64,000 nt of DNA from Octopus vulgaris (lineage: Eukaryota): positions 113,460,001 through 113,524,000 of the forward strand of contig OX597817.1 of the NCBI GenBank assembly GCA_951406725.2. The letters are read 5' to 3'. Positions within the stretch are counted from its first letter, which is position 1; every line of letters begins with the position of its first letter. Made by a program: the position numbers. This document shows positions 3,050 through 18,200 of the stretch, piece by piece.

Positions 3050-3095
<46 letters not shown>

Positions 3096-3906
3096 AAATG
3101 AGATAGGGGTTGAAAATTCAACCCACCATGGGATAATATATATCCAATATACTGCTAGATAGGTACCCAACAAAAATAATACATAGATGTTAAAAATTGT
3201 CAAGCAATCAGTTCATCTATTGTATTAAATGGGTAAAGGTAATAATATTACCGTAAATTAATACTACAAAATTAGAGAATGGAGAAACATACTTAAATCA
3301 GTAAAACATCAACTATCCGATGATACTCAATCCATACTTTAATACACCATTACATATGAGTAAAGGCAATATATAAAATGAAATGAGATATACAGTAATA
3401 GTAAAAGTAAAAAGATAAAGAGATATAAGTAAAAAATTTCAAATATAATATGCAAATAAATCAAAACTGACAGCTGTTTCGGCAGTGAGGACAGTCATAC
3501 CTCATTTAACCTATAAGCCATAAAGGCAGGTATAAATGAGGCATTAACAAGGATGCCCCACGGCCTCTTCAGAGAATTAAATTAAATTTGTTATAATAGT
3601 GAAAAATATTATATAATCATATACATATAAATATAAAAATGTAAAATATAAAAACTTATACATCATAATGCTACACTTATATAATATAATACACATTTGT
3701 ACAAAAAGGAAGGTAAACAGAACAATATAAAACAAAATATATAACAGTGTATATATTAATATTAATAAGTACCGATATTATACATATTTGGCTAATAGTT
3801 TTTTTTAATAAAAAGAGGGCTAACACATATGGAGATGAAAAATAATAATTAAATCCGTGGTACAGTTCATAAAATTCTAAAGCTATAAAAGTTAATAAAA
3901 ATTACT

Positions 3907-12200: not shown

Positions 12201-15200
12201 TTATTTTTAGGCATTTTGGTAAGGATATGAATAAATTTAGTCCTTTAATTAACAACGGTACTGTTAGAGTGGGATATAGCATTACTCATAATCTAGCCAC
12301 CATTATCTCCTCTTTTAATAACAAGAAACTGGATCACTTCTATAAGGATAGAAAATTGAATTTAGACCAGGATAACTTGCCCCTCTTCATTAATAATAGG
12401 AATAGAAATTTTCTTGGAACAAATGGGAACAACCTCCTTACTAATAATGAGTACACCATACCTGTCAGAGATAATATAAATGTAATAGATCATACTACTA
12501 CTACCAATACTAGTACTAGTGATAGAAATATAGCCGATAATGTGAAATTAACTCATTCGTTGATTTTGGGTTTGGATGATGATAACAATTGTAACACTTA
12601 TAATGTGAATAGTAGTATAGGGGTGGTGTCCAATCTTAGATTTCCTCATTCTGTTAATCTTTGTAATTGCAGAAATAAAAATAAATGTGTATTTGGTAAT
12701 CAATGCCTCAGGAAGGAGGTAGTTTACCAATGCACTGTAGATACACAATTGAGTAGTAGGGTGTATATCGGTGCAACTATGAATAGCATAAAACAAAGAT
12801 GGAATTATCACAGATATACTTTTAGGAATAAAAATAGAATGTACTCTACAGGGCTAAGTGCATACATTTGGGAACTTAAAAGTAAGAACTTAGATTTTAG
12901 ATTAAACTGGAAAATACTAACTTCAGCACCTGTGTATAATGGAAAAAATAAAAAATGCTCTCTATGTATTAATGAAATTTTCTTCATTATTAAAGCGGGT
13001 CGGCAAATTATTAACAACATTAATGAGAAAAACTTCTTTTGTATTCATAGGCTACCGTTCACCTTTTCTAGATTCAAATAGAACTTAGCACTTCCACTAT
13101 TATTAATTTTTTAATTCCCTTCTTTAACTAAATATACCTGTGGTCCTCTATAATTCTAAAGTATACAATTTATAAATTTCATAATTTTATAATTTTTATA
13201 GCTACATTTGTATAATAATTAATGGATGTGTCTAGTATTATTGGTTCCTTGATTTTTGTATGTGGGTTTTTGTTTGTTTTTTTAAGAGAAACGCAATATG
13301 ACATAAAATAGCATATTCATTTTGGTATTTGCCTTGTAATGTGTGATTTTTGAAGTTTTCCAATATTGCATAGTATATATGTATATCTTGGTTAGATACC
13401 TAGCTCTAGATAATGTAATGATATTGTATAATATGTAATATATGAGAGCCTTTTATGAGTTTGGTGGGTTTAGGTTGAGATTATAGGTTTTTTGTATGTG
13501 TTTATTTGGAAGGTTTTTATTATATATTTGGTCTTTTTGTACTCACCTTAATTTGTATCTTATGCTATTCACTGATAAACCTTTTTCATTTTTTCATTTT
13601 CTCATTTACATGCATTTTGCTTTATAATTATTACCAGCCTCATATATTTAGTTTATATCTATAGTCCTCTGGATCTGTACTTTAAACTATCCTTCCATAC
13701 ATTTTTACTTTCAACAATATAAAATATATATAAAATATATATATTCACTTTATTTATTTTTATTTATTTCCCATTTTATTGTAATATTATCAATCTTTGC
13801 ATCTAGTCCTCTATTCATTTATTTATTTGCCTATTTAAGTGTAGATGTTTACATACATATCAAGTCATCTAATTTGTTACCTATTTATTTTTTACTTATT
13901 TACTTATACTGGTGTAGTTTTATACATACATATCTATCATTTATTTGTATTTAATTTTAATAATATATGAATACATATATACTAGTTTGTACTTATAATT
14001 ATGTGTACAACCGTATTTATTCCTTCGTATTTATTCCTTCTTATTTATTTTATCTCTTTTCATCTTAAGTCTTTATAATATAAAATTTATTTAAAATTTC
14101 TGTGATGTTCTCATAAGCGTTTACATTAATACTTCCCCTTCTATTCTTTAATGCCTAAACTGGTATATTATGGCACTATTTTTATTAAGTTAATAAGTGA
14201 CTTATTTATAATATTTAAATTAATATATATTTTATATTTTATATTTTATAATTTAGCGTACTTAAAATCATAACAAACTTACGATAAACCTAACAACCGT
14301 ATGTTTACTCTGTAACAAACCGGTGTTATAAATTTTAAGTTACCCATGAAATAATTATCTGAATTAGTAACATACTGATATTTAAAAATATATTTATATC
14401 TAAATTAAATATTTTATAGAATGCATGGATGGTTCTTTTTCTGTTATTAAGGCTCAGTTATAATTTTGAAGGACTAAATGTTAGCATAGTTGCTTCCCTT
14501 TTTTGTTTATCTAAGTGCTGGTTGTTACTTGTTAATATGTATGTGTATAAGTGTATGTATATACATATAACTATGTGTGTATGTGCGATTGATCTGTAGA
14601 TGCGTGTGTGAATATTGGCGTTCCTTGACTAACCAACCGTATAATTTTCTTTTGTGATTTAAATTTCAAACCAATAGCCAATCGAATTAATCTAAATTTT
14701 CTTTACCTAGTGGTCAGCATTTCTTAACTCATAGTTATTTCGATCTTGAAAGGATGGACTTGGTGCTAACTTAACTGTATCTATTTTTAGTATTTTTTTA
14801 TTATTATTATTTTTATTATTATTATTATTATTATTAATAGTAATTTTTATTAACTTTTATAGCTTTAGAATTTTATGAACTGTACCACGGATTTAATTAT
14901 TATTTTTCATCTCCATATGTGTTAGCCCTCTTTTTATTAAAAAAAACTATTAGCCAAATATGTATAATATCGGTACTTATTAATATTAATATATACACTG
15001 TTATATATTTTGTTTTATATTGTTCTGTTTACCTTCCTTTTTGTACAAATGTGTATTATATTATATAAGTGTAGCATTATGATGTATAAGTTTTTATATT
15101 TTACATTTTTATATTTATATGTATATGATTATATAATATTTTTCACTATTATAACAAATTTAATTTAATTCTCTGAAGAGGCCGTGGGGCATCCTTGTTA

Positions 15201-18200
15201 ATGCCTCATTTATACCTGCCTTTATGGCTTATAGGTTAAATGAGGTATGACTGTCCTCACTGCCGAAACAGCTGTCAGTTTTGATTTATTTGCATATTAT
15301 ATTTGAAATTTTTTACTTATATCTCTTTATCTTTTTACTTTTACTATTACTGTATATCTCATTTCATTTTATATATTGCCTTTACTCATATGTAATGGTG
15401 TATTAAAGTATGGATTGAGTATCATCGGATAGTTGATGTTTTACTGATTTAAGTATGTTTCTCCATTCTCTAATTTTGTAGTATATATATATATATATAT
15501 ATATGTATATGTTTGTGTGTCTGTGTTTGTCCCCCCCAGCATCGCTTAGCAGTTCGGTGAAAGAGACCAATAGAATAAGTACTAGACTTACAAAGAATAA
15601 GTTCTGGGGTTGATTTGCTCGACTAAAGGCAGTGCTCCAACATAGTTGCAGTCAAATGACTGAAACAAGTAAAAGAGTAAAGAGTAAGATAAACTTACAT
15701 GTCTTTGTAACTGACACTGTGACATCAGACGAGTGTAAACAAATCTGTGTTGTTTTGTTATGTATTCTGCAGACAGAAATTAGTGCAATAATAATAATAA
15801 AGAAATTGAGAGTCAAATAACTTCTTTTGTTTGTTTCTTTCAGAGATTATCTACAGCTAATGAAGAAATCATTGAAGTTCTGCTTTCGAAACAACAATTG
15901 CTGCCAGCTCTTAGGTAAGCTATGAGGATAACTGGGAATATTTTTCTGTAGTGGAATCAGTTGATCCTTCTCTAAAAATTCCTATTTTCATGCTAATATA
16001 TCGTTGGGTTGTTAGAATTATTAGAGCATTGAACAAACTGCTTTGCGATAATTAGTTACAACTCTTTATATTCTGAGTTTAAATCTCACAAAAGCCAAAT
16101 TTGCCTTTCATCCTATGTTAGACAAATACTGGGACCAATATAATTTACTGCTCCCTTCCTCCACATGTGTGACATATTATTATTGAGTGAGAGAGCAGTG
16201 CATGCCATCAAAGTGACACTGGGGTAAAATATACGAAGCCCAGCAAACCCATCTTGACGACCTGTCTGATAAAGGTACACCAGTATTGGGATATACCAAT
16301 ACACACAGATAGAGAAATCAAGGCTAATAGGACAGATATTGTTGTCAGGGGCATCCAAGAAAAATATGCCTTCTAATTGACATATTAATCCCAACAGATG
16401 ACAACATATCTCTAAAAGAAATAAAGAAACTCTCAAAATACAAATGTCTGGAAATAGATATAACCTAAATGTGGAACCTGAAAACAAATAATCCCTATAA
16501 TACTTGGTGCATAAGTATGGTTAAAAATATACAGGCTGATACATAACTGAGTCACCACAATTACAAATATATATATATTGGGTCATCCCATAAACAATGC
16601 ATTTTTTTTACACTTCTTTTATTTTTCAAAATTAAGATAAACAAAGTCCTTATTTAATCTAAAATATACTCTCCTTCATTTTCTACAATGCTCTTCCATA
16701 CTATCTGGTAGACTTGCAAGGCCCCTCTTCCAAAATTCACTTGTCCATGATAAAAAATACATACACTTCCAGTACTGTTCTGACTGCATCTACAGAATTC
16801 ATATTTTTTCTGTCCAAATGATTTCGAAGTCTGTGCAATAAATAATCAGATGGGGCAATGTCCAGTGAATATGGTGGGTGGGGCATCATTTCCCATTCAA
16901 ACTGCTCCAGCCTTTGGAATGTCATCTTTGTTGTATGTGGCTGAACATTATCTTGATGGAAGAACACTTTCCATCTGGAAACCAAAGATGGTTGTTTTTC
17001 TTCTAGCACTGACTTAAGCCACTCAAGCTGCTCGCAGTAGATCTCCTTTGTTATCATTTGGTTTTGGTTAAAAAGTTCAAAGTAGACTAAACTTTTCATA
17101 TCCCTCCAAACAGATAACAACACCTTATGTGGGTGAAGACCTTCTTTAGCCTGGGGTGCCAGTGTTTCTCCTTTCCCTACCCACTGTTTTTGGTGCTTGA
17201 CATTTTTATAGAGAACCCATTTCTCATCACCAGTCACTATTCAGGTTCATTCATGAGACATAACAACAAAGAAGAGCACACATTCACTCTCTACATATGA
17301 TTAGATTTGGAAAGTTTGTGAAGAATCCACTGACCCAATTTGCTGACTTTTCCGATGGCACGCAGGTGTCGATGAATGGTTGAATGACCAAATCCAAGCT
17401 TCTCTGCTAGTTCCTCAACAGTTATGATGGGATTTTATTCCACCAGGTTTTGAAGGACATCCTTGTCAAGCTCTACAGATCTTCCAGGACGAGGCTGATC
17501 TTCTAGGCTGTAGTTTCTGACCCAGAATTTCTGGAACCGCTGTTGACACAGGTTTACATTTATTGTCTGATCCCCATATACTGCATTAATATTCCTCACA
17601 TTTTCCGTTGCATTGTTGCCTTTATTGAACTTGTAAATCAAAATATGCTGAATATTCTCCTTTGTCATTTCCATTATAGCTTTGAAAAAATAACTGTTAA
17701 AATCGAACTGCACTCTTCAAAACTTGCACTATGAATAAGTAGAAGGTAAAATTACTACCTGCTTTTATAGCAAGTTGATGCAGGTAGTTTATCCAACTTT
17801 TAGTTCATGCAATTGTGCAAATTGTACTCAGCACTTCACCAGCTCTATCAGTCCACCATCCATGAAGAATTTGAGTGGATAAAATCAAATCTTGTGATAT
17901 ATTAGTCAATACACCAAACATCAGAGTACTATCACTACAAGTTATAATGGAATTGTTTGAGAAGAGAATTTTAGGTTAAATTGATGGGGAAATCAATGAG
18001 TAGCCAGAGTAAGGATGGGGAAATACTGCAAAGCACTTTGTCCAGCATGCTAATGATTTAGCCAGCTGACTGCCTTAATGATGATGATGATAATAAATAA
18101 TAATAATAATAATAATCGTTTAATGTCCGTTTTCCATGCTGGCATGGGTTGGACAGTTTGACTGAAAACTGGTAAGCCAGGGAGCTGCACCAGGTTCTGA

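What the first reader, a model, noticed from the sequence alone, without database searches (positions are those of the whole stretch)
3091..15484. Young 12.4-kb Naiad-like Penelope retroelement array: inverted copy + pLTR + full-length copy, inside an RMC1 intron
Seen: a full RT/GIY-YIG unit (7493-15484) with 2.4-kb direct repeats (7493-9930 = 13092-15484), joined bluntly at 7492/7493 to an oppositely oriented 5'-truncated copy (3091-7492 = reverse complement from 11286 onward). The inverted copy extends 170 nt further (equal to 9931-10100) than the right end. Copies are nearly identical. Known: Penelope-like elements form pLTRs, inverted partial copies and 3' extensions; a C-terminal GIY-YIG with a CxCx5Cx5C knuckle and an internal CxxC fits the Naiad group as recalled. 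Inference: one recent integration event with template switching, from a possibly undescribed family with an unusually long AT-rich pLTR.
Basis: partly seen in the sequence, partly recalled or inferred. Interest (0 to 1): 0.85.

Follow-up and report, generated by a model that had tools for sequence, protein, structure and literature searches.

The report
Young Hydra-clade Penelope retroelement array
A very recent insertion of a Penelope-like jumping gene (of the Hydra group, not the Naiad group) sits as a tandem-plus-inverted array in an intron of the octopus RMC1 gene; the layout is the textbook one for this class, but the unit is unusually long and its end-piece resembles the tail of a LINE element.

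Summary
3091-15484 is one 12.4-kb array: an inverted 5'-truncated copy (3091-7492), a partial upstream unit (7493-9930) and a full-length unit (9931-15484). Copies are 98.0-100% identical, and (TA)n flanks both ends. It lies in an RMC1 intron of Octopus vulgaris/sinensis.

The label is wrong. Naiads carry the endonuclease at the N-terminus. This element has RT followed by a C-terminal GIY-YIG. It shows the Hydra-clade markers of Craig et al. 2021: RW(K/R), DKT, a CxCx5C linker, no CCHH, CxxC/CxH around E and N, and a (TA)n target. The RT model matches telomerase RTs best.

The "full-length" ORF has three -1 frame breaks in homopolymer runs. An O. sinensis RefSeq model reads through two of them.

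Unusual features:
- The unit is 5.4-5.55 kb, against 1.1-3.0 kb in 27 described Hydra families.
- The hammerhead-like motif has an 85-nt helix II and is missed by Rfam.
- The 170-nt extension is a discrete module 74% identical to a LINE 3'UTR elsewhere in the window.

Best reading: one recent event in which both target strands primed reverse transcription at two internal RNA sites, a known PLE behaviour.

The parts
3042..3090 (.). left flank: (TA)n microsatellite, the target
   Evidence: TRF (TA)27 at 3042-3095; sequence read
3091..3260 (-). 170-nt tail module at the outer end of the inverted arm (= reverse complement of 9931-10100); resembles a LINE 3'UTR
   Evidence: Arms 3091-3646 and 9545-10100 are 100% complementary (I5). 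Homology to 56231-56398(-):
3261..7492 (-). inverted, 5'-truncated copy (= 11286-15484): distal RT, linker, EN and the whole 3' region
   Evidence: 99.17% over 4232 columns. It carries the same two frame breaks as the direct copy
3469..3572 (-). hammerhead-like motif, copy in the inverted arm
   Evidence: hit of my own descriptor
7493..9930 (+). upstream partial unit (pseudo-LTR), 5'-truncated 10 nt after the ORF stop of its unit
   Evidence: 98.03% to 13092-15484. Differences listed
9619..9722 (+). hammerhead-like motif, copy in the upstream pLTR
   Evidence: descriptor hit
9931..10100 (+). 170-nt tail module between the two tandem units; resembles a LINE 3'UTR and has a conserved terminal hairpin
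   Evidence: 128/173 identical to the reverse complement of 56231-56403, E 9e-27. Two-sequence alifold: 42 pairs, 4 with changes on both sides
10101..10240 (+). 5' untranslated stretch before the ATG
   Evidence: The N-terminus MEKILINSS... aligns with residue 1 of P0001 and P0003
10241..13081 (+). RT, linker and GIY-YIG coding region. It is collinear with single-ORF relatives and broken by three -1 shifts near 10543-10549, 11595-11600 and 11747-11756
   Evidence: tblastn frames +2/+1/+3/+2. Homopolymer contexts A5, C7 and G4/C5. Motifs. AF2 and Foldseek
13082..15484 (+). 2.4-kb AT-rich (24% G+C, T-rich) non-coding 3' region; from 13092 it is the downstream pLTR
   Evidence: Composition. No ORF over 100 aa and no Pfam hit. 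No internal long repeats
15173..15276 (+). hammerhead-like motif: CUGAAGA core, 85-nt rod-like helix II (15180-15264), GAA, palindromic helix III ACAGCUGU, C at the cleavage position 15276
   Evidence: Any descriptor hit in 1 of 1000 dinucleotide shuffles of the unit. Not found by Rfam
15485..15510 (.). right flank: (TA)n microsatellite, the target
   Evidence: TRF 15482-15510; sequence
733..801 (+). RMC1 exon upstream of the array (residues ~544-566 of P0241)
   Evidence: tblastn, identical stretch ACLML...DMMK. Pfam RMC1_C
15844..15915 (+). next RMC1 exon (residues 567-590), 359 nt downstream of the array
   Evidence: tblastn, 24 of 24 identical
56231..56403 (-). last ~170 nt of the 3'UTR of an APE-type LINE, homologous to the tail module; followed by the LINE's (ACAT)n/(CA)n tail at 56169-56229
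   Evidence: LINE RT matches RVT_1 at 1.3e-26. ORF2 C-terminus with stop at 56477-56475

Best explanation
This is a single, very recent insertion of a Hydra-clade Penelope-like retrotransposon (RT plus a C-terminal GIY-YIG endonuclease). It went into a (TA)n microsatellite in an intron of Octopus RMC1.

Inferred mechanism, by analogy with the only PLE studied in vitro:
1. The element's protein bound a multi-unit RNA transcribed from a tandem source copy.
2. It cut both strands of the (TA)n target and used both 3' ends as primers.
3. One cDNA (the right arm) started at internal RNA site T1 (= 9930/15484). It ran through one whole unit and 2.4 kb into the preceding unit.
4. The other cDNA (the left arm) started 170 nt further downstream at site T2 (= 10100). 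It ran 4.4 kb.
5. The two 5'-truncated ends were joined head to head at 7492/7493.

The 170 nt between T1 and T2 is the family's 'tail', present at one end only.

Shown: the geometry, the (TA)n flanks, the near-identity, the protein family features and the host gene. Inferred: the order of events, the multi-unit template and the two start sites.
For: Geometry and identity.

Both flanks are (TA)n, and no target sequence lies between the arms.

Protein:
- The pieces are collinear with single-ORF relatives of 759-803 aa.
- 409 (longer) and 747 (near-length) relatives at E<=0.001; 4947 cluster representatives at E<=0.001.
- In an alignment with 70 relatives: RWR, SDKT, YRDD, CNCx5Cx5C, VVY...YIG, R, H, CSLC-x2-E, N...CIH, and no CxxC between GIY and YIG.
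- The AF2 model of the RT piece has pLDDT 88.6. Its PDB matches are all reverse transcriptases at the top, and 8 of the top 10 are telomerase TERT (TMq up to 0.65).
- The EN core has pLDDT 89-98, and 11 of its first 12 PDB rows are GIY-YIG nucleases.

Literature:
- Craig 2021 section 11 lists exactly these motifs and (TA)n targeting for Hydra. Section 6 and the legend of Fig. 2 describe the pLTR, the inverted 5'-truncated copy and a tail at one end as the PLE norm.
- Frangieh 2024 (main text): a PLE protein cleaves and extends both strands. RT starts at two adjacent internal sites of a multi-copy RNA, and the tail is the stretch between them.

Age: 2 substitutions in 4232 nt between the arms and 3 in 2393 nt between the pLTRs. 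At 0.0036 substitutions per site per My, as quoted in PMC13282606, this gives roughly 0.07-0.2 My at most.
Against: - Neither Pfam nor a PDB sequence profile recognises the window's ORFs. Only 1 of 32 and 1 of 64 relatives touch RVT_1, and likewise GIY-YIG; only one of these hits is above its cut-off.
- hhalign of the family against the window's LINE and Ty3 RTs is not significant.
- The EN fold matches have E 0.16 at best.
- No RT phylogeny with reference PLEs could be made.
- The unit (5384-5554 nt) is about twice the longest of 27 listed Hydra families (1080-3045 bp).
- Rfam finds no hammerhead, although the paper says canonical HHRs are universal in Hydra.
- The tail is 170 nt, not 30-40.
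- The three copies of the 3' region differ in a mosaic pattern at 8 sites. A single template does not predict this unless RT slippage, two template molecules or assembly noise is invoked.
- The ORF is frame-broken, so this copy may not have encoded its own protein.
- No reads were available to confirm the junctions.
Confidence: 0.8

Rival explanations
1. Two or more independent insertions of the same family into the same microsatellite (or an insertion followed by a local duplication or inversion), not one event.
For: (TA)n is a hot target for this clade. The three copies of the 3' region differ at 8 sites in a mosaic pattern.
Against: The two 5'-truncated ends abut directly, with no (TA)n between them. 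The same unit-to-tail junction, 100% identical over 556 nt, occurs in both arms (I5). The arrangement is the standard single-insertion form drawn for PLEs.
Confidence: 0.08
2. Assembly artefact: a chimeric or fold-back read, or collapsed or duplicated haplotypes, created the inverted arm or the tandem.
For: Craig 2021 notes that such PLE structures often cause assembly problems. The three frame breaks all sit in homopolymer runs, a typical long-read error site. The indel differences lie in repeats.
Against: The junction joins position 11286 (reverse complement) to 13092. It is therefore not a symmetric palindrome as a fold-back read would give. The arms are not identical. The outer ends both meet (TA)n, as biology predicts.
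Confidence: 0.07
3. LINE-driven mobilisation: the PLE RNA carrying a LINE 3'UTR-like module was copied in trans by the LINE's reverse transcriptase, at least for the left arm.
For: The left arm ends exactly at the 3' end of a module 74% identical to a LINE 3'UTR, next to a microsatellite. The terminal hairpin is kept in both. The PLE ORF here is frame-broken.
Against: The right arm ends without the module. Both flanks are (TA)n, the Hydra-clade target, whereas the LINE copy ends in (ACAT)n/(CA)n. [quoted passage not shown]
Confidence: 0.05
4. One reading: a Naiad-like PLE.
For: (TA)n targeting and a weak or absent canonical hammerhead are also Naiad traits. Naiad families exist in Octopus (Naiad_Obim, Naiad_Ovul).
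Against: The EN is C-terminal. There is no ORF with an EN upstream of the RT. In all 150 listed relatives the RT match begins no later than about residue 320 of the protein, mostly at 80-140. The motif is DKT, not DKA, and there is no CCHH.
Confidence: 0.02

Closest known systems
Hydra clade of Penelope-like elements (Craig, Yushenova, Rodriguez, Arkhipova 2021, PMC8557442), including Hydra-1_Obim of Octopus bimaculoides
   Same: Single ORF with the RT followed by a C-terminal GIY-YIG. RW(K/R), DKT, a CxCx5C linker, no CCHH, CxxC and CxH around the conserved E and N. Insertion into (TA)n. A hammerhead core CUGAAGAG...CGAA-ACAG..CUGU near the 3' end. Mollusc host.
   Different: The unit is 5.4-5.55 kb against 1080-3045 bp in the 27 listed families. 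A 2.4-kb AT-rich stretch lies between the ORF and the 3' end. Helix II of the hammerhead-like motif is 85 nt, so it fits neither Rfam models nor a <=30-nt spacer pattern. The helix II motif of Hydra-1_oBim is absent. The nearest full-length protein relatives are only 45-47% identical.
Poseidon PAc of Anolis carolinensis (Frangieh et al. 2024, PMC11167929), the only PLE with in vitro mechanism data
   Same: The mechanism explains this anatomy: both target strands are cut and extended, a multi-copy RNA is the template, there are two internal RT start sites, and the tail equals the stretch between them. The target is AT-rich.
   Different: A different clade (Penelope/Poseidon). Its tail is 30-40 nt and its start sites lie inside the ORF in an AC-rich stem-loop. 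Here the two ends are 170 nt apart, lie upstream of the ORF, and bracket a LINE-like module. Nothing here was tested biochemically.
Naiad PLEs (same 2021 paper)
   Same: pLTRs, inverted 5'-truncated copies, (TA)n preference, presence in Octopus.
   Different: Naiads have an N-terminal EN, a CxC motif between EN and RT, DKA, CCHH and often an IFD. None of those that could be tested is met here.
Twin priming of LINE-1
   Same: An inverted 5'-truncated segment is joined head to head to a direct segment, which is explained by priming from both target strands.
   Different: In L1 twin priming both segments come from one RNA and only one contains the 3' end. Here both arms contain the 3' region, and one arm exceeds unit length.

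Membership tests
Penelope-like elements (general) | Reverse transcriptase of the PLE/TERT type | tested here: inconclusive
   The RT fold is clear: AF2 pLDDT 88.6; the PDB matches at the top of the list are reverse transcriptases, and 8 of the top 10 are TERT. YRDD and motifs A-E align. No tree with PLE and TERT reference sequences could be built. Pfam RVT_1 touches only 1 of 32 and 1 of 64 relatives, below its cut-off.
Penelope-like elements (general) | GIY-YIG endonuclease in the same ORF | tested here: met
   The VVY...YIG, R, H, E and N positions align. One relative (P0110) passes the Pfam GIY-YIG cut-off. In the fold search 11 of the first 12 rows are GIY-YIG nucleases, although the best E is only 0.16. 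The atlas gives GIY-YIG clusters at 0.95-0.96. The frame here is broken, but it is collinear with single-ORF relatives.
Penelope-like elements (general) | Partial tandem (pLTR), adjacent inverted 5'-truncated copy, tail at one end only | tested here: met
   matched against the description in Craig 2021 section 6 and the Fig. 2 legend. The tail is 170 nt rather than 30-40.
Penelope-like elements (general) | Hammerhead ribozyme motif in the pLTR | tested here: inconclusive
   My own descriptor finds one motif per copy with the full core, G-C closure of helix II and a palindromic helix III. 1 of 1000 shuffles gives any hit. I wrote the descriptor after seeing the sequence. Rfam finds nothing even at E<=10 on 171 nt. 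Cleavage was not tested.
Hydra clade | C-terminal EN; no CxC domain upstream of the RT | tested here: met
   The order is N-terminal region, RT, linker, EN. The RT starts about 100 aa from the N-terminus.
Hydra clade | RWK motif; DKG changed to DKT | tested here: met
   The window has IRWRIF (K to R; the consensus of the relatives is RWK) and SDKTNNIY.
Hydra clade | Linker CxCx5C; CCHH absent; CxxC and CxH on either side of E and N | tested here: met
   CNCRNKNKC(x5)C. No Cys pair between VVYQC and VYIG. CSLCINE and N...FFCIH.
Hydra clade | Insertion into (TA)n | tested here: met
   Both flanks.
Hydra clade | Short unit (<3 kb) | tested here: not met
   5384 nt without the tail and 5554 nt with it. 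The 27 listed families span 1080-3045 bp. The paper words this as 'generally', so it is a tendency rather than a definition.
Hydra clade | RT clusters with the Repbase Hydra families | not testable with these tools
Indirect evidence: 38% identity to a Hydra vulgaris protein (P0171). In my 32-row tree the window falls in a 100/100 group with two Argonauta hians rows, apart from the group holding the Hydra row.
Naiad clade | N-terminal GIY-YIG, CxC between EN and RT, DKA, CCHH | tested here: not met
   The EN is C-terminal, the motif is DKT, there is no CCHH, and no EN-bearing ORF lies upstream of 10241. Definitions.

The most novel reading that the evidence does not exclude
The 170-nt 'tail' is a structured RNA module of LINE 3'UTR origin, and its two borders coincide (within 1-3 nt) with the two ends where the array's cDNAs began. 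If that holds across copies, a Penelope-like family has taken over a LINE's reverse-transcription start signal, or shares it, as the platform that sets its own two initiation sites. That would open cross-mobilisation between two retrotransposon classes. It would also offer a natural handle on how PLE proteins choose internal start sites. The same family would be a Hydra-clade PLE with a doubled unit length and a hammerhead whose helix II has grown to 85 nt.
Probability: 0.15. Interest if true: 0.6.

Novelty: new member of a known kind. Interest (0 to 1): 0.33.

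Why it matters
- It is a clean, dated example (at most about 0.1-0.2 My) of Hydra-clade PLE activity in a cephalopod. The array lies inside a conserved gene and 359 nt upstream of an exon, so it is a candidate for presence/absence polymorphism and for effects on RMC1 splicing.
- Its two different outer ends, read with the 2024 in vitro work, are a natural record of two-site, two-strand initiation in a clade for which no mechanism data exist.
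- There is a practical point for annotation. Pfam and Rfam do not recognise the protein or the ribozyme-like motif. Public gene models of pieces of this family are named 'GATA zinc finger domain-containing protein 14-like' (O. sinensis and Argonauta hians), presumably because of the Asn-rich linker.
- The LINE-like tail is the only feature that could be of wider interest.

Tried and rejected
- Pfam on the four window ORF pieces: nothing meaningful. On the 322-aa linker+EN piece: nothing.
- PDB sequence profile of the family: 0 hits at E<=1.
- hhalign of the family against the window's LINE RT and Ty3 RT: E 0.08 and 0.06, not significant.
- Rfam: no hammerhead at E<=1 on 14 kb, at E<=10 on 2.5 kb or at E<=10 on 171 nt, and nothing at gathering score in the whole window.
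- Pattern CTGANGA-N4-30-GAAA: 7 matches in the window, none in the array, 3.5 expected by chance. This first made me think that no hammerhead was present. The motif came to light only on reading the sequence.
- The 2.4-kb 3' region: no tRNA, no long internal direct or inverted repeats or TIRs, no similarity elsewhere in the window. Its origin stays unknown. A 100-aa open frame (13652-13954) is about what its composition allows, so I did not pursue it.
- I first took the TAA at ~56400 for the LINE stop codon. Translation shows that the ORF2 C-terminus ends at 56477-56475, so the module is the last ~170 nt of a ~244-nt 3'UTR, not all of it.
- I first inferred the intron from two Pfam RMC1_C hits. 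tblastn with P0241 showed a further 24-aa exon at 15844-15915, which moves the intron border.
- The listing of cluster members could not be run, so accession numbers of P0122 and the others are not given.
- A pre-existing LINE fragment at the target was considered as the source of the left-end module. I rejected it because an identical copy sits between the tandem units.
- Paper searches for a PLE with a LINE-derived tail (listing only) and for later work on the Hydra clade (listing only) found nothing specific.
Also not checked: the supplement of PMC13282606 and the figures of any paper.

Full report
OBSERVATION

BLAST of 7493-15484 against the window and the repeat finder give three pairings:
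- 7493-9930 = 13092-15484: 98.03%, 3 mismatches, 5 gap openings.
- 11286-15484 = reverse complement of 3261-7492: 99.17%, 2 mismatches, 3 gaps.
- 7493-10100 = reverse complement of 3091-5686: 99.50%.

A 2093-nt stretch (5400-7492 versus 11286-13378) is 100% complementary. The inverted arm therefore carries 170 nt (= 9931-10100) beyond the point where the right arm stops. The join at 7492/7493 is abrupt. No other copy lies in the 64 kb.

A three-way alignment of the 3' region shows 8 differing sites. Six are indels in tandem repeats or T-runs, one is a substitution and one is a doublet. They are shared in a mosaic way among the copies.

Both outer ends meet (TA)n: 3042-3090 on the left and 15485-15510 on the right.

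CODING CAPACITY

Stop-to-stop ORFs and tblastn with three relatives show one coding region, 10241-13081. It is collinear with single-ORF proteins of 759-803 aa. It is read here in frames +2, +1, +3, +2, so there are three -1 shifts. Each shift coincides with a homopolymer run (A5 near 10545, C7 at 11594-11600, G4/C5 near 11750-11758). The inverted arm shares the two breaks that it covers.

A public gene model of Octopus sinensis (P0122, 340 aa, named 'GATA zinc finger domain-containing protein 14-like') reads straight through those two places. It is 100% identical over the RT part and the 54-aa middle piece, and 94% identical over the Asn-rich part. So the family has at least one other copy with an open frame across those points. 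I cannot tell whether the breaks here are real or assembly errors.

WHAT THE PROTEIN IS

Standard libraries barely see it:
- Pfam gives nothing for the window's pieces.
- Among relatives, RVT_1 is touched by 1 of 32 and 1 of 64, both below the cut-off. GIY-YIG is touched by 1 of 32 (P0110, above the cut-off) and 1 of 64 (below it).
- A PDB sequence profile finds nothing.
- hhalign against the window's own LINE and Ty3 RTs is not significant.

Relatives are nonetheless plentiful: 409 and 747 at E<=0.001 in the two word-indexed searches, and 4947, 1701 and 172 cluster representatives at E<=1e-3, 1e-10 and 1e-30. The nearest full-length ones are only 45-47% identical. Named ones come from Argonauta hians and Hydra vulgaris.

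The AlphaFold model of the RT piece is confident (pLDDT 88.6, pTM 0.85). Its PDB matches at the top of the list are reverse transcriptases, and 8 of the top 10 are telomerase TERTs (TMq 0.52-0.65).

The model of the C-terminal piece is confident only in its last ~120 residues (pLDDT 89-98). Its PDB matches are weak (best E 0.16, none at E<=0.001). Still, 11 of the first 12 rows are GIY-YIG nucleases: T4 EndoII, I-TevI and UvrC. That EndoII and I-TevI are GIY-YIG enzymes is my own knowledge. The language-model atlas points the same way, as a lead only.

WHICH PLE CLADE

I read the abstract and sections 6, 11, 12, 15 and 20 of Craig et al. 2021 (PMC8557442) and part of its supplement.

Naiads are defined by an N-terminal EN, a CxC motif between EN and RT, DKA and CCHH.

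An alignment of the four window pieces with 70 relatives shows IRWRIF, SDKTNNIY, GLYRDDAL, CNCRNKNKCVFGNQC, VVYQC...VYIG with R and H, CSLCINE and N...FFCIH. There is no Cys pair between GIY and YIG. The RT starts about 100 residues from the N-terminus, and no EN-bearing frame lies upstream.

This is therefore a Hydra-clade element.

In a tree of 32 rows that I chose from the 240 listed hits, the window falls in a 100/100 group of six with both Argonauta rows. That group stands apart from the 26-row group that holds the Hydra vulgaris row. A formal placement against Repbase references was not possible.

HAMMERHEAD

Rfam finds none at any setting tried. A core pattern with a spacer of up to 30 nt finds none in the array.

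Reading the sequence shows the following parts:
- CUGAAGA at 15173.
- A G-C closed helix II that is an 85-nt rod (15180-15264; -38 kcal/mol, z -5.5, 0 of 200 shuffles as stable).
- GAA at 15265.
- A palindromic helix III, ACAGCUGU.
- C at the cleavage position 15276.
- A short, AU-rich helix I.

A descriptor that I wrote after seeing it hits once per copy (15173, 9619, and 3572 on the minus strand) and nowhere else in the window. It gives any hit in 1 of 1000 dinucleotide shuffles of the unit.

The core 'ctgaagag ... cgaa acag..ctgt' matches the pattern of the Hydra rows in the paper's HHR table. A palindromic helix III and a G10.1-C11.1 pair are the PLE-hammerhead traits named by Cervera and de la Pena 2014 (passages only). 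By the 2021 paper's own criteria (spacer 7-17 nt, or 'half core' at 35-50 nt) it is not canonical. I call it a hammerhead-like motif. Its activity is untested.

THE 170-NT EXTENSION

A sensitive BLAST of the unit against the rest of the window found exactly one match. Positions 9932-10099 match 56231-56398 on the minus strand at 74% identity (128/173), with E 2e-22 and 9e-27.

That place is the last ~170 nt of the 3'UTR of an APE-type LINE:
- RT matches RVT_1 at 1.3e-26.
- A weak endonuclease match.
- The ORF2 C-terminus YLPECLSRIGLHSHSRKCIRT, with its stop at 56477-56475.
- It is followed directly by the LINE's (ACAT)n/(CA)n tail.

The borders of the homology coincide within 1-3 nt with two landmarks of the array. 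One is the unit junction 9930/9931, which is also where the right arm ends (15484). The other is 10100, which is where the inverted arm ends (3091).

A terminal hairpin (GGGUUGA-loop-UCAACCC) is kept in both sequences, with different loops. A two-sequence consensus fold has 42 pairs, 4 of them with changes on both sides. That is weak evidence.

The extension is thus a discrete LINE-3'UTR-like module, not just the start of the next unit.

HOW IT MOST LIKELY AROSE

Craig 2021 describes the pLTR, the adjacent inverted 5'-truncated copy and a tail at one end only as the usual PLE insertion form.

Frangieh et al. 2024 (PMC11167929; abstract and whole main text read) showed several things for a Poseidon element:
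- The protein cleaves and extends both target strands.
- The template is a multi-copy RNA.
- Reverse transcription starts at two adjacent internal sites that are not homologous to the target.
- The genomic tail is the stretch between those sites.
- The hammerhead is not needed in vitro.

Applied here, the reading is as follows:
1. Both strands of a (TA)n tract were used as primers.
2. The right-arm cDNA began at T1 and covered 1.44 units.
3. The left-arm cDNA began at T2, 170 nt downstream, and covered 4.4 kb.
4. The two truncated ends were joined.

Three points support this. The unit holds 13 runs of (TA)3 or longer that were not used as ends, which fits defined start sites better than microhomology. 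The identical unit-to-tail junction in both arms argues that it was already in the template. The direct abutment of the arms argues for one event.

These steps are inferred, not shown.

AGE

There are 2 substitutions in 4232 nt between the arms and 3 in 2393 nt between the pLTRs. At 0.0036 substitutions per site per My, the rate quoted in the O. vulgaris repeat paper (passages only), this gives roughly 0.07-0.2 My as an upper bound, from very small counts.

HOST AND CONTEXT

An RMC1 exon ORF is 100% identical to RMC1 of Octopus vulgaris (P0241). tblastn places its last exons at ~733-801, 15844-15915, ~18909-19067 and ~20046-20123 on the plus strand. The exons were searched one by one and were not joined.

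The array fills 12,394 of about 15,040 nt of one intron. Its full-length unit lies on the gene's strand and ends 359 nt before the next exon.

KNOWN OR NEW

- A Hydra family of O. bimaculoides (Hydra-1_Obim, 2507 bp, (TA)n) is already listed.
- The O. vulgaris repeat paper counts 31 recently active PLE families with 336 insertions. Recent PLE activity in octopus is therefore known.
- Searches for later work on the Hydra clade and for a PLE with a LINE-derived tail turned up nothing specific. I saw listings only.

The array is a new member of a known kind. Three features are unusual: unit length, hammerhead helix II, and a LINE-like tail bounded by the two start sites. They rest on this one locus and need a genome-wide census, which no open collection allowed.

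Noticed in passing
window 56169-59149 (- strand): A decayed APE-type LINE. It has endonuclease remnants, an RT (RVT_1, 1.3e-26), an ORF2 C-terminal Cys/His motif, a ~244-nt 3'UTR and an (ACAT)n/(CA)n tail. Its last ~170 nt are the homologue of the PLE tail module.
   Followed up: partly
proteins P0122 (Octopus sinensis) and P0123 (Argonauta hians): Public gene models of fragments of this PLE family carry the name 'GATA zinc finger domain-containing protein 14-like'. No GATA finger is present. The name probably comes from the Asn-rich low-complexity linker.
   Followed up: partly
window 11800-12110 and 12330-12650: Two Asn-rich low-complexity stretches lie inside the ORF, between the RT thumb and the WxxxPY block and before the CxC knuckle. 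The first is where P0122 differs from the window (9 of 145 residues), while the RT part is identical.
   Followed up: no
window 16740-17716 (- strand): Mariner/Mos1-type transposase remnant (Transposase_1 at 1.9e-19, HTH_48 at 8.8e-14) in the next RMC1 intron. A second remnant lies at 42528-43115 (+).
   Followed up: no
window 23891-27336 (- strand): Four exon-sized ORFs cover Pfam Ribonuc_red_sm positions 1-273. This is a ribonucleotide reductase small-subunit gene, lying tail to tail with RMC1.
   Followed up: no
window 61211-63999 (- strand): Ty3-like LTR-retrotransposon pol (RVT_1, RNase H, integrase zinc-binding domain and core) with long open frames. It runs off the end of the window.
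   Followed up: no
window 44033-44831 (- strand) and 45759-46238 (+): Remnants of a DDE_1 (pogo-like) transposase in three frames, and a short RT fragment (RVT_1, below the cut-off).
   Followed up: no
window 13082-15160: About 2 kb of T-rich, 21-25% G+C sequence lies between the ORF stop and the hammerhead-like motif. It has no detectable relative in the window, no tRNA, no TIRs and no long ORF. Its origin (a captured repeat or an expanded UTR) is unexplained.
   Followed up: partly
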